This document shows, piece by piece, positions 25,426 through 61,656 of a stretch of DNA of 64,000 nucleotides. Origin of the DNA: Okamejei kenojei (lineage: Eukaryota); NCBI GenBank assembly GCA_035221665.1, contig CM069142.1, positions 124,001 to 188,000 on the forward strand. Reading direction: 5' to 3'. Both the position numbers and the translations under genes were made by a program. The notes below the pieces were generated by a model. The model worked only from the letters and a program-made list of their open reading frames with translations. It was not told the origin of the DNA and did no database searches. Each line of letters starts with the position of its first letter. Positions within the stretch are counted from its first letter, which is position 1.

Positions 25426-25533
25426 TTACACGAGCAATGTCAAATGGCTGGTATGCAGTTGATCACAAGGCTTCCTTGAAGAGGAAGTGTGCTTTGGAAT
25501 ATGGATCTCACTTTGTTGGCAGTTTAATTCCAG
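25426..25533 (-). CDS. IgSF gene A exon 6 (terminal cytoplasmic: LELNCQQSEIHIPKHTSSSRKPCDQLHTSHLTLLV*)
   Basis: Acceptor tttgcttccatcag; phase 0 matches exon 5; open to TAA. Confidence 0.55.
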   Translation of the reverse strand: MELNCQQSEIHIPKHTSSSRKPCDQLHTSHLTLLV

Positions 25534-26041
25534 CTGATGGAAGCAAACAGGGCAAACAAGTTAAATGCATTGAAAAATTCTCTCGATCGGTAAAGTAGAG
25601 TGACCATTTGGGTTTGCTGACACAAGGAACTGCAGATATATTAGAGAAACAGGTCCTTCGGCTCACCGAGTCTGCGCCGACCAGCGATTAACCCCTGCAC
25701 TAGCGCTATCCTGCACACTAGCGATAATTTTTACAGAAGCTAATTAACCTGTACGCCTTTGGAGAATGAGCAGCCAGAACCCGGTGAAAACCGACGAGGT
25801 CACAGGGAAAACCTACAAACTCCGTACAGACAGCACCCGTAGTCAGGATCAAACCCGGGTCTCTGGTGCTGTAAGGCAGCAACTCTACTGCTGCGCCACC
25901 TTGCTGCCGAATGGCTTGTGTTATTAGTCCATTACATCCAATAGTGCTGATGAATCTGTTCATATAAGCTGACAATACCTCAGTGTACATTAGAGTATCG
26001 TGCACGCAACATAAGGGTAAATATCAAACTAAATTACTCAC

Positions 26042-26109
26042 CTCATTTACTAAGTTCTTTCGTTTTCTCATTCTTTGAATATCAACAGTTGTGTCATGGA
26101 CAGATGATT
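26042..26109 (-). CDS. IgSF gene A exon 5 (cytoplasmic: ESSVHDTTVDIQRMRKRKNLVNE)
   Basis: Acceptor tttttatag, donor GAG|GTGAGT, phase 1 to phase 0, open frame. Confidence 0.7.
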
Positions 26110-26636
26110 CTATAAAAATATCATGAATATTTAGTGTACTTTAGATACAGGACAGAAACAGGCCCTTCAGCCCACCGAGTCTATGCTGACCATCGATCAT
26201 ACTAGTTCTATGTTATCCCACTTTCTCGGCCACTCCCTACACACTTAGGGCAATTTACAGAGGGCCAATTAACCTACAAACCCAAACATCTTTGGGATGT
26301 GAGAGGAAACTGGAGCACTCTGAAGAAACCCACGCAGTCACATGGAGAACGTGCAAACTCCACACAGTCAGCACACAGTCAGGATTGAACCCACTGTGAG
26401 GCAGCAGCTCTACAAGCTTCAACACTGTGTTGCCCTAATTGCGTTTAAATTATGTAAATCTCTCTGGGAACTAAAGACATTCCCTTCACCACCTCCAGTT
26501 TAAATTCCAGTTGGAATATTTTGGAGGACCAAGTAACCAAGAACCAAGAACCAGGAACCAAGAAAAGACAATATTCACTTTTATATGCTCAGTTTTTAGT
26601 TAAATTACAAAATAAAATGTACAATGTATACATTAC

Positions 26637-26738
26637 CTTTTTCTTTCTTCAATTTACTGTGATAATTATACACGATCCAGACGCATATTGGTACTATTAG
26701 GATCAGACTCAGTAGGATGAAATAATACTTAAGGAATC
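26637..26738 (-). CDS. IgSF gene A exon 4 (transmembrane: RFLKYYFILLSLILIVPICVWIVYNYHSKLKKEK)
   Basis: Acceptor ttttcaag, donor AAG|GTAATG, phase 1/1, ~20-aa hydrophobic run followed by basic residues. Confidence 0.82.
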
Positions 26739-29019
26739 CTTGAAAATAACAATTGAAATGTGAATCAAAACTATGCTCCAATGAATTACAAATATAATCA
26801 TGACTAATGCATGTTACGTTTATATAATCATCATTTCAGTAAATGCATCATTAAACATGTATTTAGTTTAGTTTCATTCTGTTTAGAGAAACAGAATAGA
26901 ACCTGGTGCATCTGCCCACCGAGTCCATCGCTGACCATCGATCACCCGCTCACATCAATTCTATGTTGTCCCACTTTCACATCCACTCTCTCTACACACT
27001 AGAAGCAACGTGCAGGGATCAATCGAATTACAAACCAGAGCACCCGGAGGAAACCCACGTGGTCACAGCTAAAACAGGCAATCTCCGCACAGACGATTGA
27101 AACAGAAATATATTAAAATCTAATATTTCCGAGATATTTCTCTTGTGAAATATGTCAATAGGATTCTTTCTGCAGGAATTCCATGGTAAATATCACCAAT
27201 ACGTCTGTTAATATAGATACAGCTATGTGTGGGCATCGAAGGACGAGAAGCCAAAGCGAACAAGTGGAAGCCATATAATCAAACGGAAATGACACTGAAA
27301 AGCCAAATAATCCAACAGGCGCAACGCCGAAAAGCCAAATAACCGAAAGGTCGGGGCACCTAAAAGCCAACTAACTGAACGGACGCAACGCGGAAAAGCC
27401 AAATAATGGGCGGCACTTGTCAGCGATTGGTCCAGAACCCCCGCGTCCATCACATCACTGGCTGGGGGAGACAGGAGGGTGGTTGTCATTTTCCTCACAC
27501 AAGACCACCTGAGGTGGATTAGTAAAGAGAGCCCACATGGGTGGATTAGTAGACCTTGAAGAGGCATTGACACTTTTTTTTTATGTAGAGGGGTAATAGA
27601 GGTAAGGTATGTGATTTGAGAGTAATGAATGGTCTGCGGGGGGAAAAAAGTATGATGTACTCGACACCACTGCTAAAATGGCGCTATTAAATGCGCAAAG
27701 TTCAAAAAAACAAATTAACTGCAAATAAACTGAAAAAATACAGATTATCTGGTGTTTCGTGCGTTACGCATGGGGTGGAAGATTGCAACCTTCCGGTGTG
27801 GGAGGAGATAAAATTGTTCGTTGTCATGCACACTTGTCATCAGCCCGCCAGGGAATTTGTGTGTGTCCGCCCCCCCATGTTTTAAAAGCAATTTACTATG
27901 GCTGCCAGCACCCCGGTTGGTCTGCCCCCGTGGCCTGGGGGAGGGGGGTGAGTCGGGGAGGGGGTCGCGGCCCTGTTTCCACCAATCCTTCCACCAGCAC
28001 GCACAACAAGCACAACAAGCACAAGATAGACATCATTGTCTGGCTCTGGCTGAACAACTTCTAATCTTGAGTGTGGACTCGATAAGTGTTGTAAATTACC
28101 GAGCTGTTCATGAGAAGTGAAACATTTCACAAACCGCTTGGGTTTATTGGAAAATCAACTGTATAACTGCTTCCAAAAAGCCTCTTAAACACCACTATCA
28201 TATCTGCCTCCACTACCACCCCTGGCAGCGTGTTCCAGGCACACACCACCCTCTGTGTACAAAAACTCACCCTGCACATCTTTGTTAAACTTTGCCCCTT
28301 ATAAACCAAAGAACAAGGAAAAATCATTATGCAAAATCAACAGTGAATCCTTAATATAATGGTCTGTCTTGGAATGTGTTGTGCACGGAATCTGCCAACC
28401 TCATAAAGCATAGAACATAGTGCAGGCCCTTCAGCCTGTAATGTCTGAGACCAACATGGAGCCAAGTTAAACCAATCTTCTCTGCCTACACGTGAATCGT
28501 ATCCCTCCATTCCCTGCACATCCATATGCCTATCTGAACACCTCTTAAATGCCACTATCATATCAGCCTGCACCGCCACTACTAGCAGCATGATCCATGC
28601 ACTCCCACCCTCTGTTTAAAACAACTTGTCCCGTACATCTCCTTTAAACTTTGCCTCTCTCACCTTGAAGTTATGCCCTCTAGTCCGTGACATTTCCACT
28701 ATCTACCTTTCACATTGATTTGCTATATCTGCTTACTGTCTTCAGTAAATCATTTACTATGAAACCACAATCTCCCAAGTCACAGAGGATAAACGCTGCC
28801 TCCTGTCATATAATAATAAAGCACTACATTGGTTAGTAAGTAAAGGAACCAATCTACAATAAGAAGCTTTAAAAAAAAATAAAGAAAAGAAAGAAAATGC
28901 TGGAAATATGCAGCAGGTCAGGCAGCAAATGTGGAAAGAGAAAGTTAAAGAAACAGGTCAAGGACCGATCGTGAGAACAGGGAGCAAATTAGACGATAGA
29001 GAGATGAGCAGAATTTCAT

Positions 29020-29750
29020 AGGAAGGAACTGCGGATGCTGGTTTAAACCGAAGATAGTCACAAAATGCTGAAGTAACTCAGCGGGACAGAAGCATCTCTG
29101 GAGAGAAGGAAATGGTGATGTTTTGAGTCAAGACCTCTTCAGACTGAAAGTCAAGGGAAAGGGAAACAAGAGATATCGACACTGATGTAGAGAGATATAG
29201 ATATGCAAAAAAGTATTGATGATAAAGGAAACAGGTAATTGTTAGCTGTAGCTACGTGAGAACAAAAAGCTGTTGTGACTTGGATGGGGAGGGGTGGAGA
29301 GAGAGAGGGAATGCAAGGGTTACTTGAAGTTAGAGAAATCAATATACATGCCACTGGGCTGTAAGCTGCCCAAGCGAAATATGTGATGTTGTTCCTCCAA
29401 TTTCCATTTAACCTCACTTTGACAATGGAGGAGGTAGGACAGAAAGGTCAGTGTGGGAATGGGAAGGAGAATTAAAGTGTTTAGCAACCGGGAGATCAGG
29501 TAGGTCCAGGCGGACTAAGCGAAGGTGTTCAGCGAAACAATCGCCCAGTCTACATTTGGTCTCGCCGATGTATAAGAGTCCATACCTCGAACAACGGATA
29601 CAGTAGGTGAGGTTGGAGGAGATGCAAGTGAACCTCTGCCTAACCTGAAAGGATGACCGGGATCCCGGGATGGAATCGAGGGAGGAGGTATAGGGACAGG
29701 TGTTGCATTCCTTGCGGTTGCAGGGGAATTTTTACCTGGGGGAAAAGTGG
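29020..29750 (-). mobile_element. Penelope-like element 3' portion (GIY-YIG endonuclease remnant + terminal repeat)
   Basis: Minus strand reads CIRCSRYGLLYIGETKCRLGDCFAEHLR at ~29520-29600; followed by the CTGAAGA..AAA-bearing terminal repeat. Confidence 0.8.
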
Positions 29751-31232
29751 CAATAATTTCAAAAGTAAGTAAAAAGTAAATAAAAATCAGAAGGTAGACA
29801 CAAATGGCTGTAGTAACTCAGCGGTTCAGTCAGCTTGTCTAAAGAAATGAAATACTGTAGGTGACGTTTTGGGTCGCAACCCTTTTTCAGACAGATAGAT
29901 AGAGAATGTAGGAAAGAAATGCAGATGCTGGTTTATACCGAAGATAGACCAATGAAAACAAGAAAACTACTGTAAAGTAGAACATATAACAGGAACAGGT
30001 CCTTCAGCCCACTATGGCCATGAAGAACATGATGCCAAGTTAAACTAATCTCTGTTTGCATATAATCCATATCCCTCCATTCCCTGCAATTCCATGTGCC
30101 TATCAAAACCTGTAACGTCTAACACCACAAATGGCATCTACCTCCCCGACCACTCCTGGCAGCACGCCCCAGCTCACACCACCCTCAATAAAAACTTAAA
30201 TGCTCATAAGATCAGGCAGCATTTGTGAAGAGAAAATCAGAATAAATTTTTCAGGTCGCAACCTGTGTCAGAACTTTTTTTAACTATTTTGTTTTAGTTT
30301 AGGTTAGTTTATGGTCACGTGGACTGAGATACAGCAAAAAGCTTTTGTTTTCTCATCAAAATATACAATTTTGATTTTTTTCCCCACATTATGCTATACT
30401 TCACATCTATTTTCTTGTTCATATATTCTATCCACAGTCAACTTTCCTATCTGTCTTTGTATCATTCGAAAATTTAGCAACATCACAAAGCTGCCTTCAT
30501 AGGAGTCGTATACATTACAATATTTCATAATACAATATTCAGTCTGAAGAAGGGTCCTGACCCGAAACATCACCTATCCATGTTCTCCACAGATGCTGCC
30601 TGACCCGTTGAGTTCCTCCAGCACTTTGTGTTTATGCAGGATTCCAGCATCTGAGATTCCTGTGTCTCCACATTACTTTCCAACTGTCTGTGTCATCACC
30701 AAATTTAGCAACATCCCATCTCATGTGAGTCATAAAAAGTCATTGATCGTACAGTGTGGAAACAGGCCCTTTGCGTACAGTGACCAAGATACCCCTATCC
30801 TATCCATGTACCTGTCCAAATGTTTTTTAATCATTGTGATAGTACCTGCCTCAACTACCTCCTCTGGCAGCCTGAATTCAGAAAACTGTTGCATCTCAGG
30901 TTCCTATTGAATCTTTCCCCCTCACTTTAATCCCATTCTTCATACTCCTGAGCAGCAGCACTATAACCAGTGGGGCTCCGTGAGCGATATTGAAATGGTA
31001 ATAATTAAGTACAGTGTATAGTTTATGGAGAGACAAGGAACTGCAGATGCTGGAATCTTGAGCAAAACACAAAGTGCTGGGGGAACTCAGTGGGTCAGGG
31101 AGCATCTGTGGGCTGAAGAAGGGTCCCGACCCGAAACGACGCATGTCCATTCCCTCCACAGATGCTGAGTTCCTCCAGCACTTTGTGTGTTGCTCAAGAT
31201 TCCAGCATCTGCAGTTTCTCGAGTATCAATTT

Positions 31233-31397
31233 TATACATCTTTCTTCAACTTTCATTATTATTTGAAAACATTTACCGTCAAAACACGGCGTAAGTGCTT
31301 TATTAGACCAAGATATATATAATATATATATGATAAAGCATTTACGCCGTATTTTAACGGTAAATGTTTCAAATAATAATGAAGAAAGATGTGTATA
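31233..31397. repeat. Palindromic MITE-like element in intron 3 of gene A
   Basis: ~65-70-bp imperfect inverted arms around a ~30-bp AT-rich spacer. Confidence 0.8.
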
Positions 31398-32212
31398 TAT
31401 GAGCTGATATCATCGATGTATACATACACACATACATATATATAATATATAAGGCAGCAACTCAAATATATATATATATATATATCGATGCACAGATGAA
31501 CTGTACTTGAGTAGCTGCCTCACAGCGCCGTAGACGCGGGTTCAATCCTGACTACGGGAGTTGGATGTGTGGAGTTTGTACGTTCTCCCCGTGACCTGCG
31601 TGGGTTTTTTACGGATGCTCCGGTTTCCTCCCACAGTCCAAAGACGGACAGGTTTGTAGGTTTGTAGGTTAATTGGCTTCGGTAAAATTGTAAATTGTCC
31701 CTAATGGGCAGGGTAGTGTTAATGTATGATGTGTTTAAGAAGAAGGGTCTCGACCCGAAACGTCGCATATCCTTCTCTACATAGAAGCTGCCTCACCCGC
31801 TGAGATCCTCCAGCATTTTGTTCTCTACCCAGTGTATGAGGTGATCGCTGAGTGGCCGAAATGCCCTTTTTTTCCGCGTATCTTTAAAGTCTAAAAGTCT
31901 AAATGCATATTTGCAGTAGACATTGTACACTTTTGATCAGGTCAATGAATTGCGTTCAACGTTCTCCAGAGATGCTACTTGACCCGCTGAGTTACTCCGC
32001 TGGCTACGTTGAACAAATTTGTACAAATGTACTATTAAACCTTGCAATCTTGGACATGTGTAGGACGGAACTGCAGATACTAGTTTACACCGCAGATCGA
32101 CACAAAATGTTGGAGTAACTCGGCAGTAACTGAGCCGCTGAGTTCCTCCAGCACTCTGTGTATCTTCAGTAATTGGAGGACGCTGGCTGCCACGTTCATT
32201 CAAGCCACTTAC

Positions 32213-32512
32213 TTGGGGTGGGAGAGAAGCGTTCGCTCACCGAGCCCGTCCCCGTGAGGTGCTGAACCAGGCAGGTGGCGACCGTGCCCGCCTCTAGCCG
32301 AGGGTCGGTGAGCCGCAACCGGGAGCTCACGTTGAAGCTTCCATCCCCGTTCTCCCTCAGCGGCCCCGCTTCTGTTTCATAGGACAACTGCCCCACGACA
32401 GCCCAGGACATGTTCAGCTCCCTCGGGAAGAATCCGGCGGCCACACAAGTCAGGCTCCGCGTCTCTGCGCCTTCTACCCCGGGATCCAGGGTCAGGGAGA
32501 TGTCAGGCTTCG
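32213..32512 (-). CDS. IgSF gene A exon 3 (C1-set Ig domain)
   Basis: AKPDISL..LTCVAAGFFPRELNMSW..NGDGSFNVSSRL..ATCLVQH; acceptor ttttcctactttacgcag, donor GTAAGT; 300 nt, phase 1/1. Confidence 0.92.
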
Positions 32513-34930
32513 CTGCGTAAAGTAGGAAAATAGCACGCTGTGAATCTTCCAGTCGCTCTCAGTCATGCCTGGAGCAACTGTGATAACACGGCACGCCGTG
32601 CACCGTGCAGGAGGTGCAACCACGTAATTCAATGGATTAGTAGCGGAATAAAGAGGAGCTGCAAATGCTGGTTTATATCAAAGAAAGGCACAAGTACTGG
32701 AGTAACTCAGAGGGTCAGGCGGCATCTCCGGAGAACATGGGTAGGTAACGAGACACAAAGTGCTGGAGTAACGCTTCATGGATGATATGTGATGTTTCGG
32801 GTCGGGTTACTTCTACAGACTACATCTCTTCAGTCTGTGTCTCAAAATACACAATAAGAGAGAAAAATACAGGAAGCGAATGAAATGGAATTGGAGATTG
32901 GAGATGCTGGATTTTTTAAGAATAAGGGGTAGGCCATTTAGAATGGGGATGAGGAAAAACATTTCACCCAGAGAGTTGTGAATCTGTGGAGTTCGCTGCC
33001 TCAGAAGGCAGTGGAGGCCAATTCTCTCGATGCTTTCAAGAGCGAGTTATAGAACTCTTAAAGATAGTGGAGTCCAGGGATATGGGGAGAAGGCAGGAAC
33101 GGGATACTGGTTGTGGATGATCAGCCATGATCACAGTGAATCTGCGGGGGCGATGGACAGGCGGCGTTTCGGGTCGGGACCCTTCCTCGGTCTGAATCGC
33201 CACGTGTCCATTCCCTCCACAGATGCTGCCGGACCCGCCGACTTCCTCCAGCACTTTGTGTATTTTAATGCATTAAATAGACGTGAATATCTTGTAGACG
33301 GTAAACTAAATCAAAGCAGATGATGGACATTAAAACAGAACATATAAATATTCAGCCGGACAGGCCTGATTCGCGGGAAGAGGCTGACGGTCCATGTTCT
33401 CCAGAGATGCTGCCTGACCCGATGAGTTACTCCAGCACTTTGCGTCTTTTTTTTAACCAGCACCTCCGGTTCCTTGTGTCTCAGGGTCAGGGTTTCGGCT
33501 GGAAGCCTTCAATGTGAATCGGTAAATCCCCCCCCCCCCCCCCCCCCCACCTTCAATGAAGCGTGAGGAATGTGTGCGACCATCCCCACTGTCCGCTGAT
33601 GCGGTGGGGTGGGGACCTCACACGCGTCCCAAGTTCCCCAACCCGAATGCTGCCTTAACCGCCGACTTCCCCAGTGCTTTGTGTTTTGCTTAAAGAAGAC
33701 TTCAGCGCCTGCAGTTCCCCGTCTCCACTTCTATTTCTTTCCCTTCCTGCATTTTATCTCTTTCTATTAATGTGTATGTTGCGGCACAAACCAATCCAGC
33801 CCTGACCCTAAACGTCACCTATCCATGATCTCCACAGGTGCTGCCTGACCCGCTATAAACCAGTGTCTACATGTGCCTGCTCCACTGTGAAATCCATCAA
33901 GGTATGCCTTCTTTGAAGAAGTTATCCTCCTCTCTCCGACGCAGTTCTGTAATAACCTCTCTCGCAGTCTGTAGTCGGGCCCCGTACCGAGACGTCGCCG
34001 ATCCATGATCTCCAGAGGTGCTGCCTGACCCGATGAGTTACTCCAGCACTTTGAGTCTGCCCTCTCTCACTGCTGCCCTCATTGATTCTGTCGCTTATAT
34101 TTAGTTGTGTTCATTTTCACACATAAACATGATACATCTGCCGCACATTTGGTTATCGCAGCCGGGAATTGTTTTCAGGGCCAGTTACTCTACTTCCCTG
34201 GAGCCCGGAAGCAAATGTTAAACCGAACTTGACAAAGACGGTCAGGTCTAGAGGGAATCTAGAGAAAACTGGGAGAAACAAAGAGGCTTTTGTTTCCACA
34301 CTCCCTCCGTGTAAGGAAACCAAGGTAATTAAATGGCAGCACTAGACCTGTTGGGGATGTAAACACTGCGACCGAGGTTGAGGTTGTTTTCATTATCTAT
34401 TTTGTATCATTAGGGAGACGGGAGGAACTCCAGATGCGAGTTTTTTTTTAAACCAAAGATAGACTCAAAGCGCTGGATTAACGCAGCGGGTCAGGCAGCG
34501 TCTCTGGAAATCAGGGATAGATGGCGTTTGGGTTCGGGACCTTTTGTCAGACTGGGTTGGTTTGTGCCGGAAAATGAGCATTAATAGAGAGAGATGAAAT
34601 GCAGGAATGAAATGGAAGTAGAGACAGGGAACTGCAGGGGATGCAGTCTTAAGCAAAACACAAAATGCTGGAGGAACTCAGCGGTTAAGGCCGCATCTGT
34701 GGAGGGAATGGACAGGCGGCGTTTCGGGTTGGAGAACTCGGGATTCGTGTGATTCACCAATCCCACCGCATCAGATCTCGGGGTGGCTGTGGAGGCAGAT
34801 ACGATCGCAGAGTTTAAGAGACTTTTGGATAGACACATGAATATACAAGTTAGTTTAACCTGGCCTCATGGTCCGCACGAACATTGTGGGCTGAAGGCCT
34901 TGTTCCTGTTGTATGTTCTATATTAATTAC

Positions 34931-35263
34931 CTCGGATGTGTAATGTTGATCCGTTTCCTATAAACGTTTTCCAGATATCATCATGTATCAGTGCCACACA
35001 ATGGTAAGTGTCTGCATCGTGCACAGTCACCTCCCGAATGACCAGCGAGCCCATAGATACGGACAGTCGGTCGCCTGTCTTCAGAAAACTCTCGGTCTTG
35101 TTGTCCCAGAGCTCCGGGTTGTCTTTCGTCCGAAACCAGTATTGCCTCATTGAAACTTCCTCCCCCTCTCTGGGTAGCAGGGAGCAAGTGAACGTAGCTG
35201 TCTGCCCTCGGAGAAGCGTCAGAGCAGCAGGAGACTGGGTCACCCTCACACCGACAGCGGGCC
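34931..35263 (-). CDS. IgSF gene A exon 2 (V-set domain with germline J-like GNGS motif)
   Basis: VTQSP..ATFTC..YWFR..DADTYHC..FIGNGSTLHIR; AG/GT boundaries; 333 nt, phase 1/1. Confidence 0.93.
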
Positions 35264-35501
35264 CTGGCACGGAAAGTGAACATAGTTAACGACGTCTTCC
35301 GAGTAACTCGAGTTTACTATCATGGGCACAAGGACAGTGAGGTCCAGGCGCAATTAAACCACCCCTCTCTCACCTGTAACTACTTGTGTAGGAAGGAACT
35401 GCAGATGCTGATCTGTATCGAAGACAGACACAAAGTGCTGGAGAAACTCAGCGGCGCTGGCAGAATCTCTGGAGAACATATCTGAAGAAAGGTCGCGACG
35501 C

Positions 35502-36507: not shown

Positions 36508-36556
36508 CTGGGAGAAGGAGGCAGAGTGTGTAGATGAATGTTGCAAACGATGACAT
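36508..36556 (-). CDS. IgSF gene A exon 1 (signal peptide MSSFATFIYTLCLLLPG)
   Basis: ATG at 36556, hydrophobic leader, donor CAG|GTAAGG, phase 1 compatible with the V exon. Confidence 0.85.
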
Positions 36557-39814: not shown

Positions 39815-41650
39815 GACATGTGAGATATGTGAAGAGAAAAAGGTTAGTTAAAACAAATGTAGGTCCCTTGCAGTCAGAAACTGGTGAATTGATCATGGGG
39901 AACAAGGACATGGCAGACCAATTGAATAACTACTTTGGTTCTGTCTTCACTAAGGAAGACATAAATAATCTGCCGGAAATAGCAGGGGACCGGGGGTCAA
40001 ATGAGATGGAGAAACTGAGTGAAATCCATGTTAGCCGGGAAGTGGTGTTAGGTAAATTGAATGGATTAAAGGCCGATAAATCCCCAGGGCCAGATAGGCA
40101 GCATCCCAGAGTACTTAGGGAAGTAGTCCCAGAAATAGTGGATGCATTGGTGATAGTTGTTCAAAACTCTTTAGATTCTGGAGTAGTTCCTGAGGATTGG
40201 AGTGTAGCTAACCCCACTTTTTAAAAAGGGAGGGAGGGAGAAAACGGGGAATTACAGACCAGTTAGTCTAACATCGGGGAATGTAGTGGGGAAAATGCTC
40301 GAGTCAGTTATGAAAGATGGGATAGCAGCACATTTGGAAAGTGGTGAAATCATTGGACAAAGTCAGCATGGATTTATGAAAGGTAAATCATGTCTGACGA
40401 ATCTTATAGAATTTTTCGAGGATCTAACTAGTAGAGTGGATAAGGGAGAACCTGTGGATGTGTTATATCTGGACTTTCAGAAGGCTTTCGACAAGGTCCC
40501 ACATAAGAGATTAGCATTCAAACTTAAAGCACACGGTATTGGGGGTTCAGTGTTGATGTGGATAGAGAACTGGCTGGCAGACAGGAAGCAAAGAGTAGGA
40601 GTAAACAGGTCATTTTCAGAATGGCAGACAGTGACTAGTGGTGTACCGCAAGGCTCAGTGCTGGGACCCCAGCTATTTACAATATATATAAATGATGTGG
40701 ATGAAGGAATTGAATGCAACATCTCCATGTTTGCGGATGACACGAAGCTGGAGGGCAGTGTTAGCTGTGAGGAGGATGCTAGGAGGCTGCAAGGTGACTT
40801 GGATAGGTTGGGTGAGTGGGCAAATGGATGGCAGATGCAGTATAATGTGGATAAATGTGAGGTTATCCACTTTGGCAGCAAAAACAGGAGGGTAGACTAT
40901 TATCTGAACGGTGACCGATTAGGAAAAGGGGAGATGCAACGAGACCTGAGTATCATGGTACACCAGTCATTGAAAGTAGGCATGCAGGTGCAGCGGGCTG
41001 TGAAGAAAGCAAATGCTATGTTGGCATTCATAGCAAAAGGATTTGAGTACAAGAGCAGGGAGGTTCTACTGCAGTTGTACAGGGTCTTGGTGAGGCCACA
41101 CCTGGAGTATTGCGTACAGTTTTGGTCTCCTAATCTGAGGAAAGACACTCTTGCCATAGAGGGAGTACAGAGAAGGTTCACCAAACTGATTCCTGGGATG
41201 TCAGGACTTCCATATGAAGAAAGACAGGATAGACTCGGCTTGTACTCGCTGGAATTTAGGAGATTGAGGGGGAATCTTATAGAGACTTACAAAATTCTTA
41301 AGGGGTTGGACAGGCTAGATGCAGGAAGATTGTTCCCGATGTTGGGGAATTCCAGAACAAGGGGTCACAGTTTAAGGATAAGGGGGAAGTCTTTTAGGAC
41401 CAAGATGAGAAGATCATTTTTCACACAGAGAGTGGTGAGTCTGTGGAATTCTCTGCCACAGAAGGTAGTTGAGGCCAGTTCATTGGCTATATTGAAGTGG
41501 GAGTTAGATGTGGCCCTTGTGGCTAAAGGGATCAGAGGGTATGGAGAGAAGGCAGGTACAGGATACTGAGTTGGATGATCAGCCATGATCATATTGAATG
41601 GCGGTGCAGGCTCGAAGGGCCGAATGGCCTACTCCTGCCCCTATTTTATA
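39815..41650 (+). mobile_element. 5'-truncated CR1 LINE with a 427-aa open RT segment (40286-41569)
   Basis: QHGF..KSCLTNL, YLDFQKAFDKVPH, GVPQGSVLGP, FADDTKL; frameshifts near 40200-40280. Confidence 0.95.
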
Positions 41651-42353: not shown

Positions 42354-42369
42354 TCTAAGGCCGGGGTGT

Positions 42370-49532: not shown

Positions 49533-49563
49533 CTGAAGAAGGGTCTCGACCCGAAACGTCGCC
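49533..49563 (+). ncRNA. Minimal type I hammerhead ribozyme-like motif in a Penelope-associated repeat (representative)
   Basis: CTGAAGA-A-GGGT/CTCG/ACCC-GAAA-CG-TC. Confidence 0.65.
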
Positions 49564-49970: not shown

Positions 49971-50023
49971 TTATAAATCTGAAGGTTTTTTTCCATCATC
50001 CACCCGGATTGACTGATGTCCAT
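49971..50023 (-). CDS. Candidate terminal exon of B7-like gene B (NGHQSIRVDDGKKPSDL*)
   Basis: Strong acceptor ttttctttattttcag; phase-1 compatible with the C exon; no homology support. Confidence 0.4.
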
Positions 50024-51420: not shown

Positions 51421-51792
51421 CTTACCCCCGAACTCCATCTCCAGCCGGACACAAGGACGTTGCATCTTCCCGTGACCCGATATCCCTCTCCATGCCCGGC
51501 CGTCTTCACCCCTTGGTTTCCCCCCCCCCCCCCCCAACCGGGGAACAAGGGCTGAAGAGGGTCTCGACCCGAAACGTCGCCCATCTCCTTCGCTCCTTAG
51601 ATGCTGCTGCACCCGCTGAGTTTCTCCAGCTTTTTGTGTACCCTCGATTCTCCAGCATCTGCAGTTCCTTCTTTAAAAAAAAAAGGGCTGAAGAGGGCTG
51701 GGCATGGAGAGGGACTTCAGGTCACGGGAAGATGCGACGGCCTTGTGTCCGGCTGGAGCTGTAGCTGGAGCTGGATGGAGATCGGGGTTAAG
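51421..51792. repeat. GC-rich foldback palindrome interrupted by a short retro-insertion
   Basis: Arms ccagccggacacaagg..ccctctccatgccc and its reverse complement; 15-bp TSD around the insertion. Confidence 0.85.
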
Positions 51793-53909
51793 TTGCGGAT
51801 GTGGCCGTGACGGGAATGGTGGCCCAAGCTTTAGCCCAGGATGGCCTCACCAGAGGCCACGCCTGGCACATGGCATGATTTGTTCTCCAGAACAAATCAA
51901 AAAAGAAAGATTTTTTTTCTCTCTAAGACTTCAGCACCAGTCGGGAATGGCGCTGAATAAAGGTACGTATGCAACAAGAGACTGAGTTTTTACGCTTCTC
52001 GTCCCGCGAATCAGGAGAAATTCACAAGGTAGGGGACTTTTGTTTTCCGCGGTCTTTTGAGGTCGGACATTCGCGTCTATTCCATTTATAGCCATGTGGG
52101 ACGGCTCAACAAAGCTGCGTGACGGTAATTACTCCAATCATCCGGACAAGGAACTTTTGAAAAATACGGTAAGCTTTATAATTTTATCAAGAATAGACGA
52201 TTTTGTTAAGGGTGACAAATATTTTAATTATTAATACCTACCGTTTAAAAGTATTTTCATTTACAATAGATCCCCCATTAAATAAATATGCCAACTTGAA
52301 ATTTCACTAGTAACCACTGGGACATGCGGTTTGGGGGGGGACGGGGGGGGGGGGGGCGACATCGAATAGCGAGTAAAAAAAAAACTTTATTCATTTAGGG
52401 TTTAATCTTTATTTATGAGGATTATGTTTATTAACAATATAGAGGAAGAAGAAATGGGATAGAAATAATCAAAGTAGCAGGACACCAAAATAGACGCTTA
52501 CTGAAGAATCACCCAAATGTCTTATCTGAGCTATGGAGGCTATTAAATAAGTGCAATCCAGAAAATAGTCATCAATCATTCCACACTGCTACCAATTTCA
52601 AAGTTTCTCATGACCAACAATCAGAAACAAAGTGCCAAACTTAGTTAATCCATCCGTACAGTATATGTTTTACTTTACCATACCAGAGACACTGTGATGA
52701 AACAGGTCCTTCGGCTCATCGGGACCACGCCGACCAGCGATCACCCCATACGCTAGGACTATCCTACACACTGCACATGGCAGAGTATTCAGCTAGCCAC
52801 GCGGTGGGAGGATCCCGGCAAGCCTCGGCAAAGCCCACCAGCAGGCCCAGCTGGCTTGCCGTGGACTGAGCACCTGCTCCCCAGACCGGAACCCGCCTGT
52901 AAGGCCCGGCTCACCTGCCCAGAGTGGAGTGAGTTGGACAGAGTGCCAGTAAACAGACCGACTGCAGGAGGCAGTGCATTGCCTTGACGGGGGAGTGGGC
53001 CGCTGGAGGCCCTGCAACAGCCTGGGCCTCGGCTGGACTGGACACTGCTCCAAGAGGCCAAGCACGTGGAGCGGGCACCGTCTAGAGTGGTGGAGGACAT
53101 CATGGTCACACATGGCCAGGCCGACCCTGCAATGCCACCAGGACAACAGGCCATCATGGTCAGGTCAAGAACCCTGCACTTACAATTGTCACTCGAAAAT
53201 GGCACCAAATATGGTGACTGTACACTGACTCGGTGTGCTACTGCAAGACACTTGTATCTGTGATGCTCAGCTAACACGTATCTAAGTGTTTCTGTATAGT
53301 GACACGTACTGAACTGTATACAGAAATGAATTTCACTGTACCTCAGTACATGAGAGAAATAACGTGCCATTGAATCACTGAACACAAGGAATAAATTACA
53401 ATTTCTGGAAGCCAATTAACCTACAAACCCCATCTTTGGAGAATGGGAGGAAACCGGAGCACCTGGAGAAATCCTATGAGGTCACAGGGAGAACGTACAA
53501 ACTCCATACAGACACCCCCCCAGTCAGGATGGAACCCGGGTCTCTGGCGCTGTGAGGCAGCAACTCTACCACTGCGCCAACACTACACGTGACAATAATA
53601 AACCTAAATCTAAATCTTGTGGGGCGGTGAGACTAAATCCTGGAATAGTTCACCAACAAACTTGTCAAAGGACAAATCAAAATAGGACGTACATGGTAAA
53701 TGGTAGGGAATTGAGGAATGCTGTGGAACAGAGGGATCTAGGAATAACTGTGCATAGTTCCCTGAAGGTGGAATCGCATGTAGATAGGGTGGTAAAGAAA
53801 GCCTTTGGTGTGCTGGCCTTTATAAATCAGAGCATTGTATATAGGAGTAGGGAAGTAATGTTAAAATTGTACAAGGCATTGGTAAGACCAATTCTGGAGT
53901 ATGGTGTAC

Positions 53910-56900
53910 AATAGTAAGATCAAATGAGAACTTACCAGTTTGAAATTTGATCTTTATTTTATGAGGAGTTACGATGAGGGATTACGTGAAGACCCCGCCA
54001 GGACGCATGCGCGACATTCTTCAAAGCAGTGGTGTGAAATCACAGATACCAGAGTAGACTAATATAGTAAGATAAGAGAGAACTTCCATACCAGTTGAAC
54101 TTTATAATAGAGGGTTTTGGGAGCGGAGGGCACGTAATCCCTCATCGTAACTCCTCATAAAATAAAAGATCAAACTTCAAACTGGTAAGTTCTCATTTAA
54201 TCTTACTATTTTACTTCGGAGTCACGTGAGTGACTACGTGAAGATTTCAAAGCTCTGTGATTTCATGCCCTGGAACGAGACCATGCTCACACACTGCCAT
54301 TCTGGGACGGAGGATGAACGTATTTCACACACGACACTGTGCTGAAAAAAACAATAAAGGTATTATTCATACCTAAAATAATATGCCCCACATTGGGCAA
54401 TTTATTTTACAGAACTTAATTTTTCCCTGCAAACGTCTCAGGATCGGCCACGGGTTTATTATAAAGCATTGAATGCGTTCATTGCTCCACCCCGTTGTGG
54501 CAAGGATGTGGTCCATAGGAACTCCCATCATCCTAGCGTCCGATGTAGATGCAGCCCTGTTGGAGTGAGATTTGAAACATTAGTATTCACCACTACACGT
54601 AATACCACCAGAAACATCTGGATATGGTTTGCACTGTGACCTTAGGTGAGGGCATTTATGGCTAATGAGAAAGCTCTCTCCGTGCCCATAAGTGTCTTGG
54701 TGACTATATATTGGAAAGTATGTGTCACTATGCAGGGCCGACTATCTGCAGGATAGGCCAGAACTCTAATATTGGCCAAAGGAACCGGGTCAGTCTAGTT
54801 TAAGTACCCCTGTATGTAGCAGGTTATGTGCCATTTGTGACAGACATGACGCCCTATTCTAGCTTGTGTAAGGACTGGACCCGTTGTGCTGATCCAAGTG
54901 CCATAATCATTCCCATCTAGGATATTAGTTTGTCCAGAGTGAGCCCCGATATTGGTGTCCATCCTCCGTAACATGGTGTACTACCTATGTCCCATATATG
55001 GGTGTATCTGGGCCTGGGGGGAATAGAGTACAAATACCCCTCATTCGTTTATGTACTAGTGGGTGTGATCCTATAGCCAGGTGATCACTCCCTCTGCCCA
55101 GATATTAGATAGGGCACTCCTTGCACAATAATGGCACTGTAACTCAATCCTTCATCGAAATGAAGGGTGGCCAGAACTCCAGCACTTCAGTGTTGGTGGC
55201 TGAGTCATATGTAGTGTTCGTCCTGGTGCTGAACACTTCCCATTTCCTGACATATGTCAGGTACTGTCTTCTCGTGGACTCCCTGCACGACGCTGAGATG
55301 GCATTGATCGTCCTTGATGAAAGCATGCCTACTTTCACCAGTCATTGAAAGTAGGCATGCAGGTGCAGCAGGCAGTGAAAAAAGCGAATGGTATGTTAGC
55401 TTTCATAGCAAAAGGATTTGAGTACAGGAGCAGGGAGGTTCTACTTCAGTTGTACAGGGTCTTGGTGAGGCCACACCTGGAGTATTGCGTACAGTTTTGG
55501 TCTCCAAATCTGAGGAAGGACATTATTGCCATAGAGGGAGTGCAGAGAAGGTTCACCAGACTGATTCCTGGGATGTCAGGACTGTCTTATGAAGAAAGAC
55601 TGGATAGACTCGGTTTTATACTCTCTGGAATTTAGGAGATTGAGAGGGGATCTTATAGAAACTTACAAAATTCTTAAGGGGTTGGACAGGCTAGATGCAG
55701 GAAGATTGTTTCCCGATGTTGGGGAAGTCCAGGACAAGGGTCACAGCTTAAGGATAAGGGGGGGAAATCCTTTAAGACCGAGATGAGAAAGACTTTTTTC
55801 ACACAGAGAGTGGTGAGTCTCTGGAACTCTCTGCCACAGAGGGTAGTTGAGGCCAGTTCATTGGCTATATTTAAGAGTGAGTTGGATGTGGCCCTTGTGG
55901 CTAAGGGGATCAGAGGGTATGGAGAGAAGGCAGGTACGGGATACTGAGTTGGATGATCAGCCATGATCATATTGAATGGCGGTGCAGGCTCGAAGGGCTG
56001 AATGGCCTACTCCTGCACCTAATTTCTATGTTTCTATGTTTCTATGTCCTGTCGGAGAGTCCGTATCCCAGAAATGGCCTGTTCAGAAACTGCAAATCAA
56101 CAAGTTCATACAGTCACGGCACGGATACTTTCCCGCACGGGGTGTGCCAACCTCCTTGGCCGTTGTTGATCCAGATGCAGGGTTCTGAGACCATCTTTGT
56201 ACTGTTGGGAACCATGGTACCCGTTGCGGCGTCTTGTTTAATTATTGTAAGACTCGCCTGATGAGGCAGAAGGGGAAAATGCATAGCAAAACAAATCCCC
56301 CCCCCCCCCCCCCCCCCCCCAATGCAGCGAGAAATCGTCCATCGCTGCTGCCCCTGGGTCTGGTTTCCCAAGCAACATATGTTTGGTAGTTGGTGAATTA
56401 GTCCGGATGGAAAAAAGGTCGATATCTGGTGTCCCATACCGGTCTATAATATCTGTAAACACTTTCCGATCCAACATCCATTTAATGTTGTCGTTGAATT
56501 TACGTGACCTGATGTCTGCCACTGTATTTAGCTTACCTGGAAGGTAAGTGGTTGAGATCCAAATCTCTCTCCCAGACACCAGTGCCAGATATTATTAGGC
56601 AATTCATCACATGATATCGACTTTATTTCACCCATATGATTATATAATAGGCCCCCAGTGTGGTATCAATCTGTACCGTACATGCAAACTGGTGCTCATC
56701 TGAGCAGTAGGCCCTGAGTCCATGAAACGCTCCCAGCATTTCTAGATAATTAATTCCTAGTGCTTTAAACAGAATAAGTTTTGTGCACTCATCTGCCACC
56801 ACAACTTGCGGTGGTATTAGTTGCTCTCCCAACCTTTAGCACTGGCATCAGTCTGTAATGTACCCTAGGGATATAGAATGGGGTGATGGGGTTAGGATAA

Positions 56901-59283
56901 TATGGAACATTTCTATCCACCAGTTTAATTCTAATTTACTTTCCCTGGTAGTTGCATAGGCCTATTGAAATGGCCTGTATGATTTTTGAGAGCTAAAATT
57001 TCCCTCTTCCAGGTTTTAATAATGGAGTGGTCCAATTGTGCTGCTGGGAACGCAGCCACCAATTCCCAATCACTCTTGCTCCTTGCCGAATGGATGGTTC
57101 CCTGATGCCAGTGAGGCTTTTGCATACTCCCATCAAGTCTGTCACTTTGTTTGGTGGCAAGGTGATAGACATATGAACAGAGTCAATAGTGAACCCCAAA
57201 TAATCCATGGTAGTGGAGGGTTCCAATTTTGATTTATCTGGATGTACGTTAAATCTCTGTGTTGTGGCTGATACCACCAATGTAGCCAGCTCCAATTTTC
57301 ACCTACAATGAGAATATATCATCAAGGTAAGCCATGACGATATGGTTATGTTTCTTTAAGTATGCTAAAGCTGGTTTTAATAAATTTGTAATAGCCTGGG
57401 TGCTGATGACAACCCATTGGATAAGGCATACTGCCATTGCTGTCCCATCCAGATAAATTTCAGGTATTTACGATGACCCTGTGTGTGACAAACGTGTCTA
57501 TTTTGAAATGGGCATACTGAACAGGAAGTATTTAGTTCGGTCAAATCTGTAATGATACGGCAACCACCATCTTTTTAGTTTTTTTATAAATATATTTGAT
57601 ACGAACTCTTGAAATTCTCTGATTGTTTTCTCAATCCCTTTTGTGTTTAGTCTTAACAGTTCAGCATGGCCTGCTGTTCTCTCTTTTTGTGAAGTATGAA
57701 CTTCCTGCTAGGCGTATGCTGAACTGGGACGGTAGTTCGTATACAAATTCAATTTTGTAATTCTGAATACTTTCCGAGTATGTAAAAGTTCAGAGGTAAA
57801 AAGTGCAGCACACATGATGAAACAAGTGCAACCGTCCCCCAACTTTAATGAATCGGACATGCAATGTTTTTTAAGACAACCAGACCCACCTACCTCCATG
57901 GTTACCGGTATTGTGTGGGTTGTCTCCGCAGTTGTTTCTTCTGGTATTGTGTTGCTGCGTTGTGGGGTTGGCGCGTTTTCCATGAAGGCCGGGCTGGCCA
58001 TGGTCTGAAAGACCGCTGTGCAGGTGGGCCGGCCTTCGAGCTTTCACCACCAGATGGTCTTCCATAGCACCGATGTCTGGTGGGTGTGTAGGGGTGCTGC
58101 CACTGTTGATAGTGGGTTTTAGAGGTGCTTGGCACCTTGATCAGGCCTATAGCCTTGGCTTCCTCATGCAGGTCTTTTCACCTGCTTCGGGAGGTCCCCC
58201 AACAGCAATTTTGGCGCCTGTGTGCTACTTTCTTGCATAATTCCGCACTTCTTGATGATGCTCTTCCTGTAACTGTAAATCTCCACTGAGTATTACACAG
58301 TCTGCTAGAGCATCACGTAACTCTTCAGGCAAATCAACCCCATCAGTTGTCCTGGTACTGCTGTGATTTTAGCAGCCAGAAGTTTCCTCTGGAGCTTCAC
58401 CTCCTGGCTCCTTATAGATGGGCTCCTGTTGCCCCAGATGGGGTCATAGACTGCTGGTACTTTAAGAGAAATGGAGTTCTCTGGAACAATGTACTTCCCA
58501 GCCATAAAGTTAATGGCTTGCACCTGTAGCTGGTTTGTAGCCATGTATTTCTTACTGGCTTGCAGCTTTGTATAGGCAGTCCTTCTTGAGTTGATACAGC
58601 ATGTGTCCCACAATCTTCTGCTGCTCTCTCTTCTGGCACCCCTCACAGTTGACTGTTCAGCCATTGCCCCTTCTTCAGGGTCAGCCCAGCTCTGACCCCT
58701 AATGCTCCCCTGCGAAGAGGGTGAGACATTTGGCAGTCCTTGAAAGGATCCTGCCGTGGGTCTGCGAAGAGACCCACTGTGACTCTGCCCCTGCATAAGC
58801 AGGTCACGCTGGAGCACTGCTCCCCACCCGCTCCCGCGGGAAAGACGCCCGCCGTCCCTATCCGGGAATGGGGTGTCTTCAGGTCCCGGACCCAGAGCCG
58901 AGTCAACGGACCTGTCCGACTTCCGGGAGGTTTTGCCGCCGACCGCGGCGCACCTGCGGTCTGTAGCGGCGAGAAGCCGGCAGCTGCTGGCAGCACCTGC
59001 AGCTCTGGGAGAGACGGCACGCTGCTGGCTGCTTCCACAGCAGCGGTATCAGCTGCTGCTCTCCCTTACGCGACTCCATGGTGCTTCCTCCTGAAAAAGA
59101 AATTACACCGAGTCGCCACGCTCACCAGAAAAGGTAAGACTTACCTTCAGTAATTTTTCAAAATTCGCGCTGGAGGAGCGGCGCTCCTCCCGACTGTCGC
59201 TTCCGCAATGCGTTCGACGATATGTCGCGCATGCGTCCTGGCGGGGTCTTCACGTAGTCACTCACGTGACTCCGAAGTAAAAT
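53910..59283 (-). mobile_element. Full-length degenerate DIRS1-like tyrosine-recombinase retrotransposon (gag, RT/RNaseH, Dam-like, YR)
   Basis: Inverted termini and internal complementary region (54131-54243); MAYLDDI RT motif ~57313-57335; TYLPGKLNTVAD and PDIDLF motifs; YR FKSHSNRAASTS ~54541-54576. Confidence 0.92.
55315..56045 (+). mobile_element. Young CR1 inserted in the DIRS YR region
   Basis: GTCCT duplication at 55310-55314 and 56046-56050; TTTCTATG tail. Confidence 0.9.
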
Positions 59284-59985
59284 TTTGGTCGCCTAGTTAT
59301 AGGAAGGATGTCAACAAAATAGAGAGAGTACAGAGGAGATTTACTAGAATGTTGCCAGGGTTCCAGCAACTATGTTACAGAGAAAGGTTGAACAAGTTAG
59401 GTCTTTATTCTTTGGAGCGCAGAAGGTTAAGGGGGGACTTGATTGAGGTCTTTATAAGGGATAGACAGAGTTGACGTGGATACGTTTTTCCCATTGAGGG
59501 TAGGGAAGATTCAAACAAGAGGGCATGACATGAGAATTAAGGAACAGAGGTTTCGGGGTAACGTGAGGGGGAACTTCTTTACTCAGAGGGTGGTGGCTGT
59601 GTGGAATCAGCTTCCATCAGAAGTGGTGGAGGCAGGATCGATTTTAACATTTAAGAGTAAAGTGGATAGGTATATGGACGTGAAGGGAATGGAGGGGTAT
59701 GGTCTGAGTGCAGGTAGATGGGACTAGGGGAAAACAAATGGTCGGCACGGACTGGAATGGCCGAGAGGGCCTGTTTCCGTGCTGTAATTGTTATATGGTT
59801 ATATGGTTAATGACTGATGGATAGACAAAAGATGTCTGCCTACCTTTGTCTACCTTTGATTTTTCCAGCATCTGCAGTTCTTTCTTAAACAATGACTGAT
59901 GATCTCAGATTATGAATGAAAATATCTCTAATAAGCTTATTTAAATTAACTTTTACTTGATTAATAATCTCAGAGATAAACTTAC

Positions 59986-60249
59986 TCGAGAAGCCCACTC
60001 GAGTCTGTTTTTTCATCCACTTATGCCACATTGAGCAGATGTACTGATTCTGTTCCTCATATGCGTTCAGACTGCGGGTCACGTTGAAATAGCCATTGCT
60101 TTCTATCGTGATTATTTCACTGTACTCATTTAAATCGTTCTCCGATTTGTCCTTCCACTCCACCGTTGGGGCAGGATACCAGCCTGATGACTGGCAAGAG
60201 AGCGTGCGGTTTTCGGATTTCCAGATAACTTTGATAGGATCAGTAGCAG
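59986..60249 (-). CDS. B7/butyrophilin-like gene B, C-type Ig domain exon
   Basis: LSCQSSGWYPAPTVEWKD..GYFNVTRSL..YICSMWH; acceptor tttcttttcttggcag, donor GTAAGT; 264 nt, phase 1/1. Confidence 0.9.
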
Positions 60250-61320
60250 CTGCCAAGAAAAGAAACATAAATAGCAACCATTAATGGTAACATGGTGGCA
60301 CAGCGGTCGAGTTGCTGCCTCACAGCGCCACAGACCTGGCTTCCATCCTGACTATGGGTGCTGTCTGTACGGAGTTTGTCCGTTTTACCCGTGACCGCGT
60401 GGGTTTTCTCCAGGTGCTCCATTGTCCTCCCACACTCCAAAGACGTGCAGGACAATTGAGATTTTTTACTGATGCCAATTAACCTACCGACCTAGGATAG
60501 ACATAAAATGCTGGAGTAACTCAGGCAGCATCTCTGTAGAAGGAATGGGTGACGTTTCGGGTCAAGACCTTTCTTCAGACCTGTATGTCTTTTGTGTGGG
60601 AGGAAGCTGGTGTCCCCGGAGAATACCCACGTGGTCACGGGGAGAACGTACATACTCCATACAGACTGTACCCATAGTAAGGATCGAACTCTGGTCTCTG
60701 GTGCAGTAAGACAGCAACTCTACCACTGTGCTGCCATTAATAGTTGTATAATTAGACACCCCAACGACACCCCTGTTCTTTGTTACTTTGATGCCATGGA
60801 CATTCTCAGCTACATTTCATCCTGACAGAGGCATGAAGTTTATTTGAACTGGTGGAACTTCACAAGAGAATTTTGATGAAGGGAGATGACACAAGAATTT
60901 TCAGCATCTGGCTTCCTGTAAAAAAAGCTGTGTTAAGAATTAAAAAGAATCCCTAATACTGAACAATGAAATAAATAAACCCAGGTACATTTGACCCTCA
61001 CTGTAAACAGAACAAGAGAGAAGACAAGGAGGTTTCCAGTAGTGCGTGAGTCTAGGACCCGAGGGCACAGCATCAGAATAAAACAATGTTCCTTTTGAAG
61101 GGAGAAGAGGAGGAATTTCTACAGCCCGAGGGCGGTGAATCTGTGGAATTCATTGCCACAGACAGCTGTGGAGTCCAAGTCATTGGGTATTTTTAAAATG
61201 GAGATTGACAGGTTCTTGATTAGTACAGGAGTCAGGGGGTATGGGGAGAAGGCAGGAGATGACTGAATGACCGATGGGCCGAATGGCCTAATTCTGTTCC
61301 TATCAAGTATGAAGACATAC

Positions 61321-61656
61321 CCCAAACAGATAGCTGGACAAATCCATCTCCATATGCATTGTCAGTGCTAATACTGACAATGTACTTTCCCTCATCCCAG
61401 ATGTCGACATTCTTCAATGTAAGGAATGCTTTTCCTTCTTTAAATGAGAATGTGTTGACGTCGATTCTTCCCGAGTAGTTGGCATGTTTGCTGACATCGC
61501 TTTTATCGTCCTTGTACTCGTACAAGATTCCGGCATCTTGATCCTTCTTCCACATCACCCAAGGTGCACATGGATCGTCGCAGTCAAACGTACACTTGAA
61601 GGTGACATTCTTGCCGATCTCTACATCTGTGGCCTGTTCACAAGTGATGAATGCAT
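61321..61656 (-). CDS. B7/butyrophilin-like gene B, V-type Ig domain exon (leader exon not found in window)
   Basis: GKNVTFKCTF..VMWKK..YSGRI..GKAFLTLKNVDIWDEGKY; acceptor tcttttgttcag, donor G|GTATGT; 336 nt, phase 1/1. Confidence 0.9.

What the first reader, a model, noticed from the sequence alone, without database searches (positions are those of the whole stretch)
25426..61656. Tandem VJ-C1 receptor and B7/BTN-like gene: candidate linked receptor-ligand module
Seen: the two IgSF genes are on the same strand with no other intact gene recognised between them. Known: VJ-type receptors bind B7-family V domains (NKp30 with B7-H6, CD28 with CD80/86, gamma-delta TCR with butyrophilins). Inference: a physically linked receptor-ligand or co-regulated immune pair in an early-diverging jawed vertebrate, relevant to primordial immune complex models. 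Adjacency alone does not show binding.
Basis: inference. Interest (0 to 1): 0.75.

Follow-up and report, generated by a model that had tools for sequence, protein, structure and literature searches.

The report
Skate paired receptor beside soluble B7-H4
In a skate, a gene for an antibody-like receptor with a likely inhibitory tail sits 13 kb from a likely B7-H4 checkpoint gene that has no membrane anchor; the two are probably neighbours in sharks too, and the receptor has a predicted activating twin, but whether it binds this B7-H4 is untested and likely not the case.

Summary
There are two separate minus-strand genes, 13.4 kb apart, with only mobile-element remains recognised between them. 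The upstream gene is most likely the B7-H4/VTCN1 orthologue, not a butyrophilin (MAN1A-TENT5-WDR3-type neighbours). Unlike bony-vertebrate B7-H4 it has no membrane anchor, in skates, rays, a shark and chimaera alike. The downstream gene is a 332-aa leader-VJ-C1-TM receptor. Paralogues nearby have an arginine in the membrane helix and a stop at the ITIM tyrosine, the signature of a paired activating/inhibitory family. Orthologues occur across sharks and rays, some with four-tyrosine tails or V-C1-C1 ectodomains like SIRP-alpha, but the locus is not beside NSFL1C. RefSeq accession order suggests the adjacency also holds in two other skates and horn shark. Nothing here shows binding; conserved neighbours are normal in this block. 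Verdict: a real SIRP-like paired receptor family beside a soluble B7-H4, undescribed in the papers I could search; receptor-ligand pairing about 15%.

The parts
61321..61656 (-). B7-H4/VTCN1-like V exon (phase 1-1); lacks the F-strand cysteine
   Evidence: Pfam V-set; best PDB hit human B7-H4 V, 4gos, E 5.6e-08; 83-84% identical to skate proteins named VTCN1; splice sites
59986..60249 (-). B7-H4-like C exon (phase 1-1)
   Evidence: Pfam C2-set_3, E 6.6e-14; tblastn with orthologues; splice sites
49971..50023 (-). B7-H4-like last coding exon: 17 mostly polar residues ending PSDL-stop; no membrane helix
   Evidence: tblastn with Leucoraja, Amblyraja and Pristis proteins; present in 3 of 3 genomic copies
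36508..36556 (-). Receptor leader (signal peptide) exon, 16 codons + 1 nt
   Evidence: Leader scan found the same exon upstream of the V exon in 5 of 5 cluster copies
34931..35263 (-). Receptor VJ exon: V and J-like GNG motif in one exon, non-rearranging
   Evidence: Pfam V-set; model pLDDT 88; nearest folds VNAR/TCR V; bridged to the C1 exon in a public contig
32213..32512 (-). Receptor C1-set exon
   Evidence: Pfam C1-set, E 1e-12; splice sites
26637..26738 (-). Receptor transmembrane exon, uncharged helix in this copy (Leu where four other copies have Arg)
26042..26109 (-). Receptor first cytoplasmic exon
22017..22163 (-).
   Evidence: tblastn with Pristis P0013, E 2.7e-17; sequence; both motifs in 18 of 27 family proteins scanned
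40208..41566 (+). LINE-type reverse transcriptase frame between the two genes (not part of either)
   Evidence: Pfam RVT_1, E 1e-30

Best explanation
The window holds two separate genes: a VJ-C1 membrane receptor with two tyrosine motifs, likely the inhibitory member of a SIRP-like paired receptor family of sharks and rays, and an anchor-less V-C protein that is likely a secreted B7-H4 orthologue; they are probably old neighbours that were duplicated together rather than a binding pair. Shown: exon structure, motifs, absence of a membrane exon, paralogues with Arg in the helix and a stop at the ITIM tyrosine, copy map. Inferred from known ITIM receptors: ligand binding by the V domain leads to tail phosphorylation and SHP-1/SHP-2 recruitment, which dampens a leukocyte. 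Inferred from known paired receptors: the Arg-helix, tail-less twin signals through an ITAM adaptor such as FcR-gamma or CD3-zeta, and the V loops vary under pressure from a changing ligand, such as a pathogen mimic of a self ligand. The ligand is not identified.
For: Separate genes: the receptor has its own leader in 5 of 5 copies; all 6 hits in a search limited to 196-2000 aa were stand-alone 228-238 aa proteins. No anchor: 11 of 11 batoid proteins have best 19-residue hydropathy of 1.27 or less after the leader; horn shark and chimaera proteins end the same way, while sturgeon, paddlefish and bat VTCN1 have hydrophobic C-termini. B7-H4 identity: MAN1A-family exons at C12 1.04-1.12 Mb, TENT5 at 1.42 Mb, a Utp12 domain at 1.61 Mb, the recalled human order VTCN1-MAN1A2-TENT5C-WDR3; RefSeq names. 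Paired family: of 6 TM exons in the cluster, 4 have Leu>Arg together with Tyr TAT>TAG, and 2 have a neutral helix and an intact tail; the same stop-making base is in contigs of two public runs from differently coded organisms; rays have a second short Arg-helix type (3 of 27 proteins). V versus C1 between this copy and its intact twin: 10 versus 0 nonsynonymous changes, Fisher p 0.002 per site, mostly in the BC and FG loops. SIRP-alpha and SIRP-gamma are, with UrIg2, the only non-antibody entries among the 60 best PDB matches shown; 3 of the first 4 Atlas rows include two named SIRP-alpha clusters.
Against: No ligand was tested, so 'not a binding pair' rests on priors. Both inhibitory-type copies lie directly 3' of a B7 cassette, and the adjacency seems to reach back to the shark-ray split; this fits functional linkage too. 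The tree does not resolve chondrichthyan and bony-vertebrate VTCN1 as sisters (one clade not rejected, p-AU 0.42), and whole-unit profile and Atlas matches rank butyrophilins as high or higher. I did not check that the C12 MAN1A and TENT5 genes are the A2 and C paralogues. The V/C1 contrast is not significant as a ratio of nonsynonymous to synonymous changes (p 0.095) and gene conversion in C1 could cause it. One Amblyraja model joins an Arg helix to an intact tail (P0038), which blurs the two types. TEYAIL does not meet the strict ITSM consensus TxYxx(V/I).
Confidence: 0.65

Rival explanations
1. Linked receptor-ligand pair: the secreted B7-H4 binds the V domain of the neighbouring inhibitory receptor (and its activating twin), and the link keeps the two co-inherited.
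For: Adjacency suggested in two other skates and horn shark by accession order. Both inhibitory-type copies follow a B7 cassette. Both genes are multi-copy with protein divergence at or above neutral rate in their V exons. B7-H4 inhibits T cells through a receptor unknown as of the 2017 review, and this receptor has a PD-1/BTLA-like two-tyrosine tail.
Against: The mirrored B7-receptor unit is explained by one segmental duplication. Unrelated neighbours (MAN1A, TENT5, WDR3-type) keep their order as well. The receptor lacks the CD28-family single-V layout and CDR3 prolines. A monomeric soluble ligand would cluster an ITIM receptor poorly (inference). A decayed family copy lies 34 Mb away from VTCN1.
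Confidence: 0.15
2. The B7-H4-like protein is not a secreted ligand but stays in the ER or pairs in cis with a membrane partner, perhaps this receptor, as a chaperone or light-chain-like subunit.
For: Signal peptide, no anchor, and a C-terminal D/E-L in 9 of 12 chondrichthyan full-length rows of the alignment, from skates to chimaera; that this resembles KDEL-type retrieval signals is recalled.
Against: 3 of 12 rows lack the ending, including little skate; the -4 and -3 residues vary and do not match KDEL/HDEL.
Confidence: 0.08
3. The receptor is the true elasmobranch SIRP orthologue, moved to another locus, and binds CD47.
For: VJ plus C1 domains, up to four tail tyrosines in sharks, V-C1-C1 forms in Mobula and Hypanus, charged-helix twins; SIRP matches in PDB and Atlas.
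Against: NSFL1C-type SEP domains are on C20 and C4, not C12. The two C1 domains of the ray proteins are near-identical, so look recent. A 2026 survey places the SIRP family at Tetrapoda. UrIg2 and antibodies score as well.
Confidence: 0.2
4. One fused gene, V-C-VJ-C1-TM, made by splicing the B7 C exon to the VJ exon (both phase 1).
For: Same strand and compatible phases; this cassette has no leader of its own in the assembly.
Against: The B7 stop exon and the receptor's own leader lie between them in both arms of the cluster; no fused protein among the hits of two searches limited to longer proteins, which is weak evidence by the tool's own note.
Confidence: 0.03

Closest known systems
SIRP-alpha / SIRP-beta paired receptors
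   Same: Joined VJ domain plus C1, ITIM-bearing inhibitory form, charged-helix short-tailed form, variable V loops; RefSeq auto-names most orthologues SIRP-beta-1-like or PTPNS1-like.
   Different: One C1 in this gene and in sharks; Arg rather than the recalled Lys in the helix; beside VTCN1, not NSFL1C; ligand unknown.
B7-H4 (VTCN1)
   Same: B7-type V-C unit, best V-domain PDB match, same gene neighbourhood.
   Different: Cleavable-type leader and no C-terminal anchor in all chondrichthyan sequences seen; F-strand cysteine missing in skates, sawfish and chimaera; three cassettes in this genome.
PD-1 and BTLA
   Same: Two tandem tyrosine motifs of ITIM and ITSM-like type.
   Different: Extra C1 domain; shark PD-1 is a separate gene at another locus (passages).
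PRARP and Xenopus VJC1 genes
   Same: Non-rearranging VJ-C1 membrane receptors with inhibitory-type tails (recalled).
   Different: PRARP is described as MHC-linked (passage); orthology was not tested and the primary papers were not held.
UrIg / UrIg2
   Same: Non-rearranging elasmobranch VJ-C1 genes; UrIg2 is among the top PDB matches.
   Different: UrIg is secreted with three C1 domains and MHC-linked; UrIg2 lies in the antigen receptor complex.
NKp30 with B7-H6
   Same: VJ domain with a GNG J motif; Arg-helix form in the twin (NKp30 features recalled).
   Different: NKp30 has no C1 and is MHC-encoded; B7-H6 is membrane-bound and matches this B7 protein only weakly.

Membership tests
VTCN1 / B7-H4 | B7-type V plus C ectodomain | tested here: met
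VTCN1 / B7-H4 | Position beside MAN1A2-TENT5C-WDR3 | tested here: met
   Family hits in that order at C12 1.04-1.61 Mb; human order recalled; paralogue identity not checked
VTCN1 / B7-H4 | Clade with bony-vertebrate VTCN1 | tested here: inconclusive
   Both clades well supported, joint node unresolved; p-AU 0.42
VTCN1 / B7-H4 | C-terminal membrane anchor | tested here: not met
   exon scans found 0 of 86 and 2 weak of 320 candidate acceptors
VTCN1 / B7-H4 | Leader exon for this cassette | tested here: inconclusive
   None found up to the next B7 copy; 500-N run in between; nearest leader 58 kb upstream, beyond copy 2
Butyrophilin | Membrane helix and B30.2 domain | tested here: not met
   Protein ends 17 residues after the C domain
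SIRP | Joined VJ domain followed by C1 | tested here: met
SIRP | Two C1 domains | tested here: not met
   One C1 exon here; two in Mobula and Hypanus models
SIRP | ITIM tail in one member, charged helix and short tail in another | tested here: met
SIRP | Locus beside NSFL1C | tested here: not met
   SEP hits on C20 and C4; the human linkage is recalled
SIRP | Binds CD47 | not testable with these tools
   No binding assay; the genome search for CD47 gave no information
CD28 / CTLA4 / PD-1 | Single extracellular V domain | tested here: not met
   C1 exon present and bridged to V; definition
CD28 / CTLA4 / PD-1 | CDR3 proline motif (PPP or EIP) | tested here: not met
   FG loop has none; PD-1 itself lacks it
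ITIM / ITSM receptors | (S/I/V/L)xYxx(I/V/L) and TxYxx(V/I) | tested here: inconclusive
   LHYAPV meets the ITIM; TEYAIL has Leu at +3
PRARP / VJC1 | Orthology by tree or synteny | not tested
   No named sequences at hand; papers not held
UrIg / UrIg2 | Secreted, three C1 domains | tested here: not met
Rearranging Ig / TCR | V and J in separate segments | tested here: not met
   V and J-like strand in one 333-nt exon ending in a GT donor

The most novel reading that the evidence does not exclude
This VJ-C1 inhibitory receptor is the ancestral receptor of B7-H4: in cartilaginous fish a secreted B7-H4 and its paired receptors have stayed side by side since before sharks and rays split, and finding the receptor's descendants would point to the missing mammalian B7-H4 receptor.
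Probability: 0.12. Interest if true: 0.88.

Novelty: new variant of a known kind. Interest (0 to 1): 0.52.

Why it matters
Even without binding, two things would be new to comparative immunology as far as my searches reach: a non-rearranging VJ-C1 paired receptor family across sharks and rays that has SIRP's design at a different locus, and a B7-H4 that has been anchor-less throughout cartilaginous fish. Non-rearranging VJ-C1 genes are the sought relatives of the gene that RAG invaded. If the two proteins do bind, it would give a first handle on the B7-H4 receptor, a long-open question for a cancer drug target, and the test is one cheap binding assay.

Tried and rejected
Complex prediction of the two V domains was not available: no verdict. 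Read support for the B7 exons was not obtained, so splicing and co-expression of the B7 cassette are open. No RNA holder was listed for the receptor V exon; this says nothing on expression. The CD47 search rang nowhere, controls included. The fold search of the V model returns VNAR, TCR, light chains and PD-1 at similar scores and does not separate families. No chimaera receptor was among the 19 hits, a word-limited search, so adjacency in chimaera is open. Narcine is uninformative: its receptor is on a 95-kb contig. A membrane exon for the B7 gene was sought and not found. Earlier notes of this scan: 3 look-ups, nothing. Papers not held: Flajnik 2012, Ohta 2019, the UrIg paper, Dornburg 2022, Fu 2019; they or their supplements may already list this gene.
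Full report
What is there. The window is C12:124001-188000 of a 2.76-Gb genome; the B7-type V exon is 83-84% identical to Leucoraja and Amblyraja proteins, so the animal is a skate. Four Ig exons lie on the minus strand: V (61656-61321), BTN/B7-type C (60249-59986), VJ (35263-34931) and C1 (32512-32213). They belong to two genes. The upstream one ends in a 53-nt exon at 50023-49971. The downstream one starts with its own leader at 36556, found in 5 of 5 cluster copies. The gap is 13.4 kb; 45% of it has three or more copies in the DNA I fetched, and 1 of 41 frames scanned hit Pfam, a reverse transcriptase.

The upstream gene. Its V exon's best PDB match is human B7-H4. All 6 hits of a protein search were 228-238 aa batoid proteins named VTCN1 or VTCN1-like. 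MAN1A-family exons, a TENT5 gene and a Utp12 domain follow at 1.04-1.12, 1.42 and 1.61 Mb of the same contig, matching the human VTCN1-MAN1A2-TENT5C-WDR3 order as I recall it. A tree of 39 V-C units (14 named, plus the 25 best unnamed units) gives a chondrichthyan clade (99/98) and a bony-vertebrate VTCN1 clade (100/98) in an unresolved group; holding them together is not rejected (p-AU 0.42). Whole-unit matches favour butyrophilins as much, so orthology rests mainly on position. The striking feature is the missing anchor: 11 of 11 batoid proteins have no hydrophobic stretch after the leader, and the horn shark and chimaera proteins end likewise, whereas sturgeon, paddlefish and bat VTCN1 end in a hydrophobic tail. 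Scans for a hidden membrane exon gave 0 of 86 and 2 weak of 320 candidates. The window's cassette has no leader exon before the next B7 copy; a 500-N run lies in between. It may share the leader 58 kb upstream: Amblyraja isoforms X1 and X2 have the same leader but different V and C domains. Its divergence from the other copies is near neutral (V 12 nonsynonymous to 2 synonymous, C 19 to 5), so this copy may be relaxed or dead despite open frames.

The downstream gene. Six exons give 999 nt, 332 aa: leader, VJ, C1, membrane, two tail exons. The last exon, 22163-22017, lies outside the finding and holds LHYAPV and TEYAIL. The first meets the ITIM consensus; the second misses the ITSM consensus by Leu at +3 (consensus from passages of PMC12151841). 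A profile search found 19 relatives, from 7 ray or skate and 6 shark genera. 18 of 27 family proteins scanned have two or more tail motifs; most shark forms have four, as SIRP-alpha does (recalled); the rest are partial, lack the membrane exon, or are short forms. A 612-nt contig of public run X1 joins the V exon to the C1 exon across the intron.

A paired family. The first 850 kb of C12, fetched almost whole, holds five leader-to-tail receptor copies, one fragment and three B7 cassettes in two mirror-image arms. Four of six membrane exons carry Leu>Arg, and the same four copies have TAT>TAG at the ITIM tyrosine; two copies, this one included, have a neutral helix and whole tail. Only this copy and the Arg-type copy just 3' of the window are intact in the assembly; the others have frameshifts with few substitutions, some of which may be assembly errors. 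The stop-making base also shows in contigs of runs X1 and X2, so it is not this assembly's error. Sawfish, Hemitrygon and Mobula have a second short form with a different Arg-bearing helix, whose decayed relic lies at C12 34.8 Mb here. Between the two intact copies V has 10 nonsynonymous changes and C1 none (p 0.002 per site, p 0.095 against synonymous changes), and the loops are the most variable parts across species. Against the clean picture, one Amblyraja model has both Arg and a whole tail.

Is the adjacency conserved? By proxy, yes. RefSeq accessions are consecutive in Leucoraja (XP_055500206/207) and Amblyraja (XP_032889365/366-368) and two apart in horn shark (XP_067896839/841), each pair on a contig of the same length. 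In Pristis and Rhinoraja the contig is the same but the numbers are not consecutive; Narcine is uninformative. That is 3 of 6 species adjacent by number and 5 of 6 on one contig. I saw no coordinates. Both inhibitory-type copies here lie directly 3' of a B7 cassette, but one inverted duplication explains that, and unrelated genes of the block keep their order too.

How it likely works. Shown: anatomy and copy pattern. Inferred from known ITIM and paired receptors: the window's receptor dampens a leukocyte through SHP-1/2, its Arg-helix twin activates through an ITAM adaptor, and the V loops are under pressure from a changing ligand. The B7-H4 protein is likely secreted; a C-terminal D/E-L in 9 of 12 rows leaves ER retention as a minor rival. 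I put direct binding between the two at about 15%: it was not tested, known B7 receptors of the CD28 family have a single V, and linkage is weak evidence. It stays attractive because the B7-H4 receptor was unknown in the review I read and the tail is PD-1-like.

Comparison and novelty. It works like SIRP-alpha/beta but fails two SIRP features tested (two C1 domains; NSFL1C locus). It is not CD28/PD-1, NKp30, UrIg or a rearranging receptor. PRARP/VJC1 orthology was not tested. RefSeq already holds automatic models of both genes. Ten literature searches listed no paper describing this receptor family, an anchor-less shark B7-H4 or their linkage, but five key papers were not held. What I saw of papers: PMC12227049 part 1 of 8 and passages; PMC11599192 parts 1-3 of 6 and passages; PMC10751288, PMC13262535, PMC5413580, PMC12975943 and PMC12151841 passages only; no supplements.

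Noticed in passing
G000:C12:107066-122353 (L036, L037), just 3' of the window: Intact receptor paralogue with Arg in the membrane helix and a stop at the ITIM tyrosine: the predicted activating twin.
   Followed up: yes
G000:C12:34793093-34801631 (L073, L074): Decayed V exon and decayed second-type membrane exon of the receptor family, 34 Mb from the cluster.
   Followed up: partly
window about 53960-59290, inside the B7 gene's last intron: Broken element with inverted terminal repeats seen by eye, resembling a DIRS retrotransposon from recall; the frames scanned gave no Pfam hit.
   Followed up: partly
window about 20300-21700: Broken Tc1/Sleeping Beauty-type transposase (HTH_SB, DDE_3) just 3' of the receptor.
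   Followed up: partly
window 61321-61656: The B7 V domain lacks the F-strand cysteine and has extra cysteines in the A strand and BC loop; horn shark and Narcine keep the F-strand cysteine.
   Followed up: partly
P0015, P0016, P0033, P0034: Mobula and Hypanus models have two near-identical C1 domains, reaching SIRP's V-C1-C1 layout apparently by recent duplication.
   Followed up: partly
P0020, P0024: Shark isoform models that skip the membrane exon but keep the tail, possibly soluble receptor forms.
   Followed up: no
G000:C12:7252403-7252687 and 7396620-7396880 (L022, L023): Two further C1-set exons, 37% identical to the receptor's, 7 Mb along the same contig; gene not identified.
   Followed up: no
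window 22017-21981: Skate tails stop after the second tyrosine motif; remains of the longer shark-type tail lie behind the stop.
   Followed up: partly
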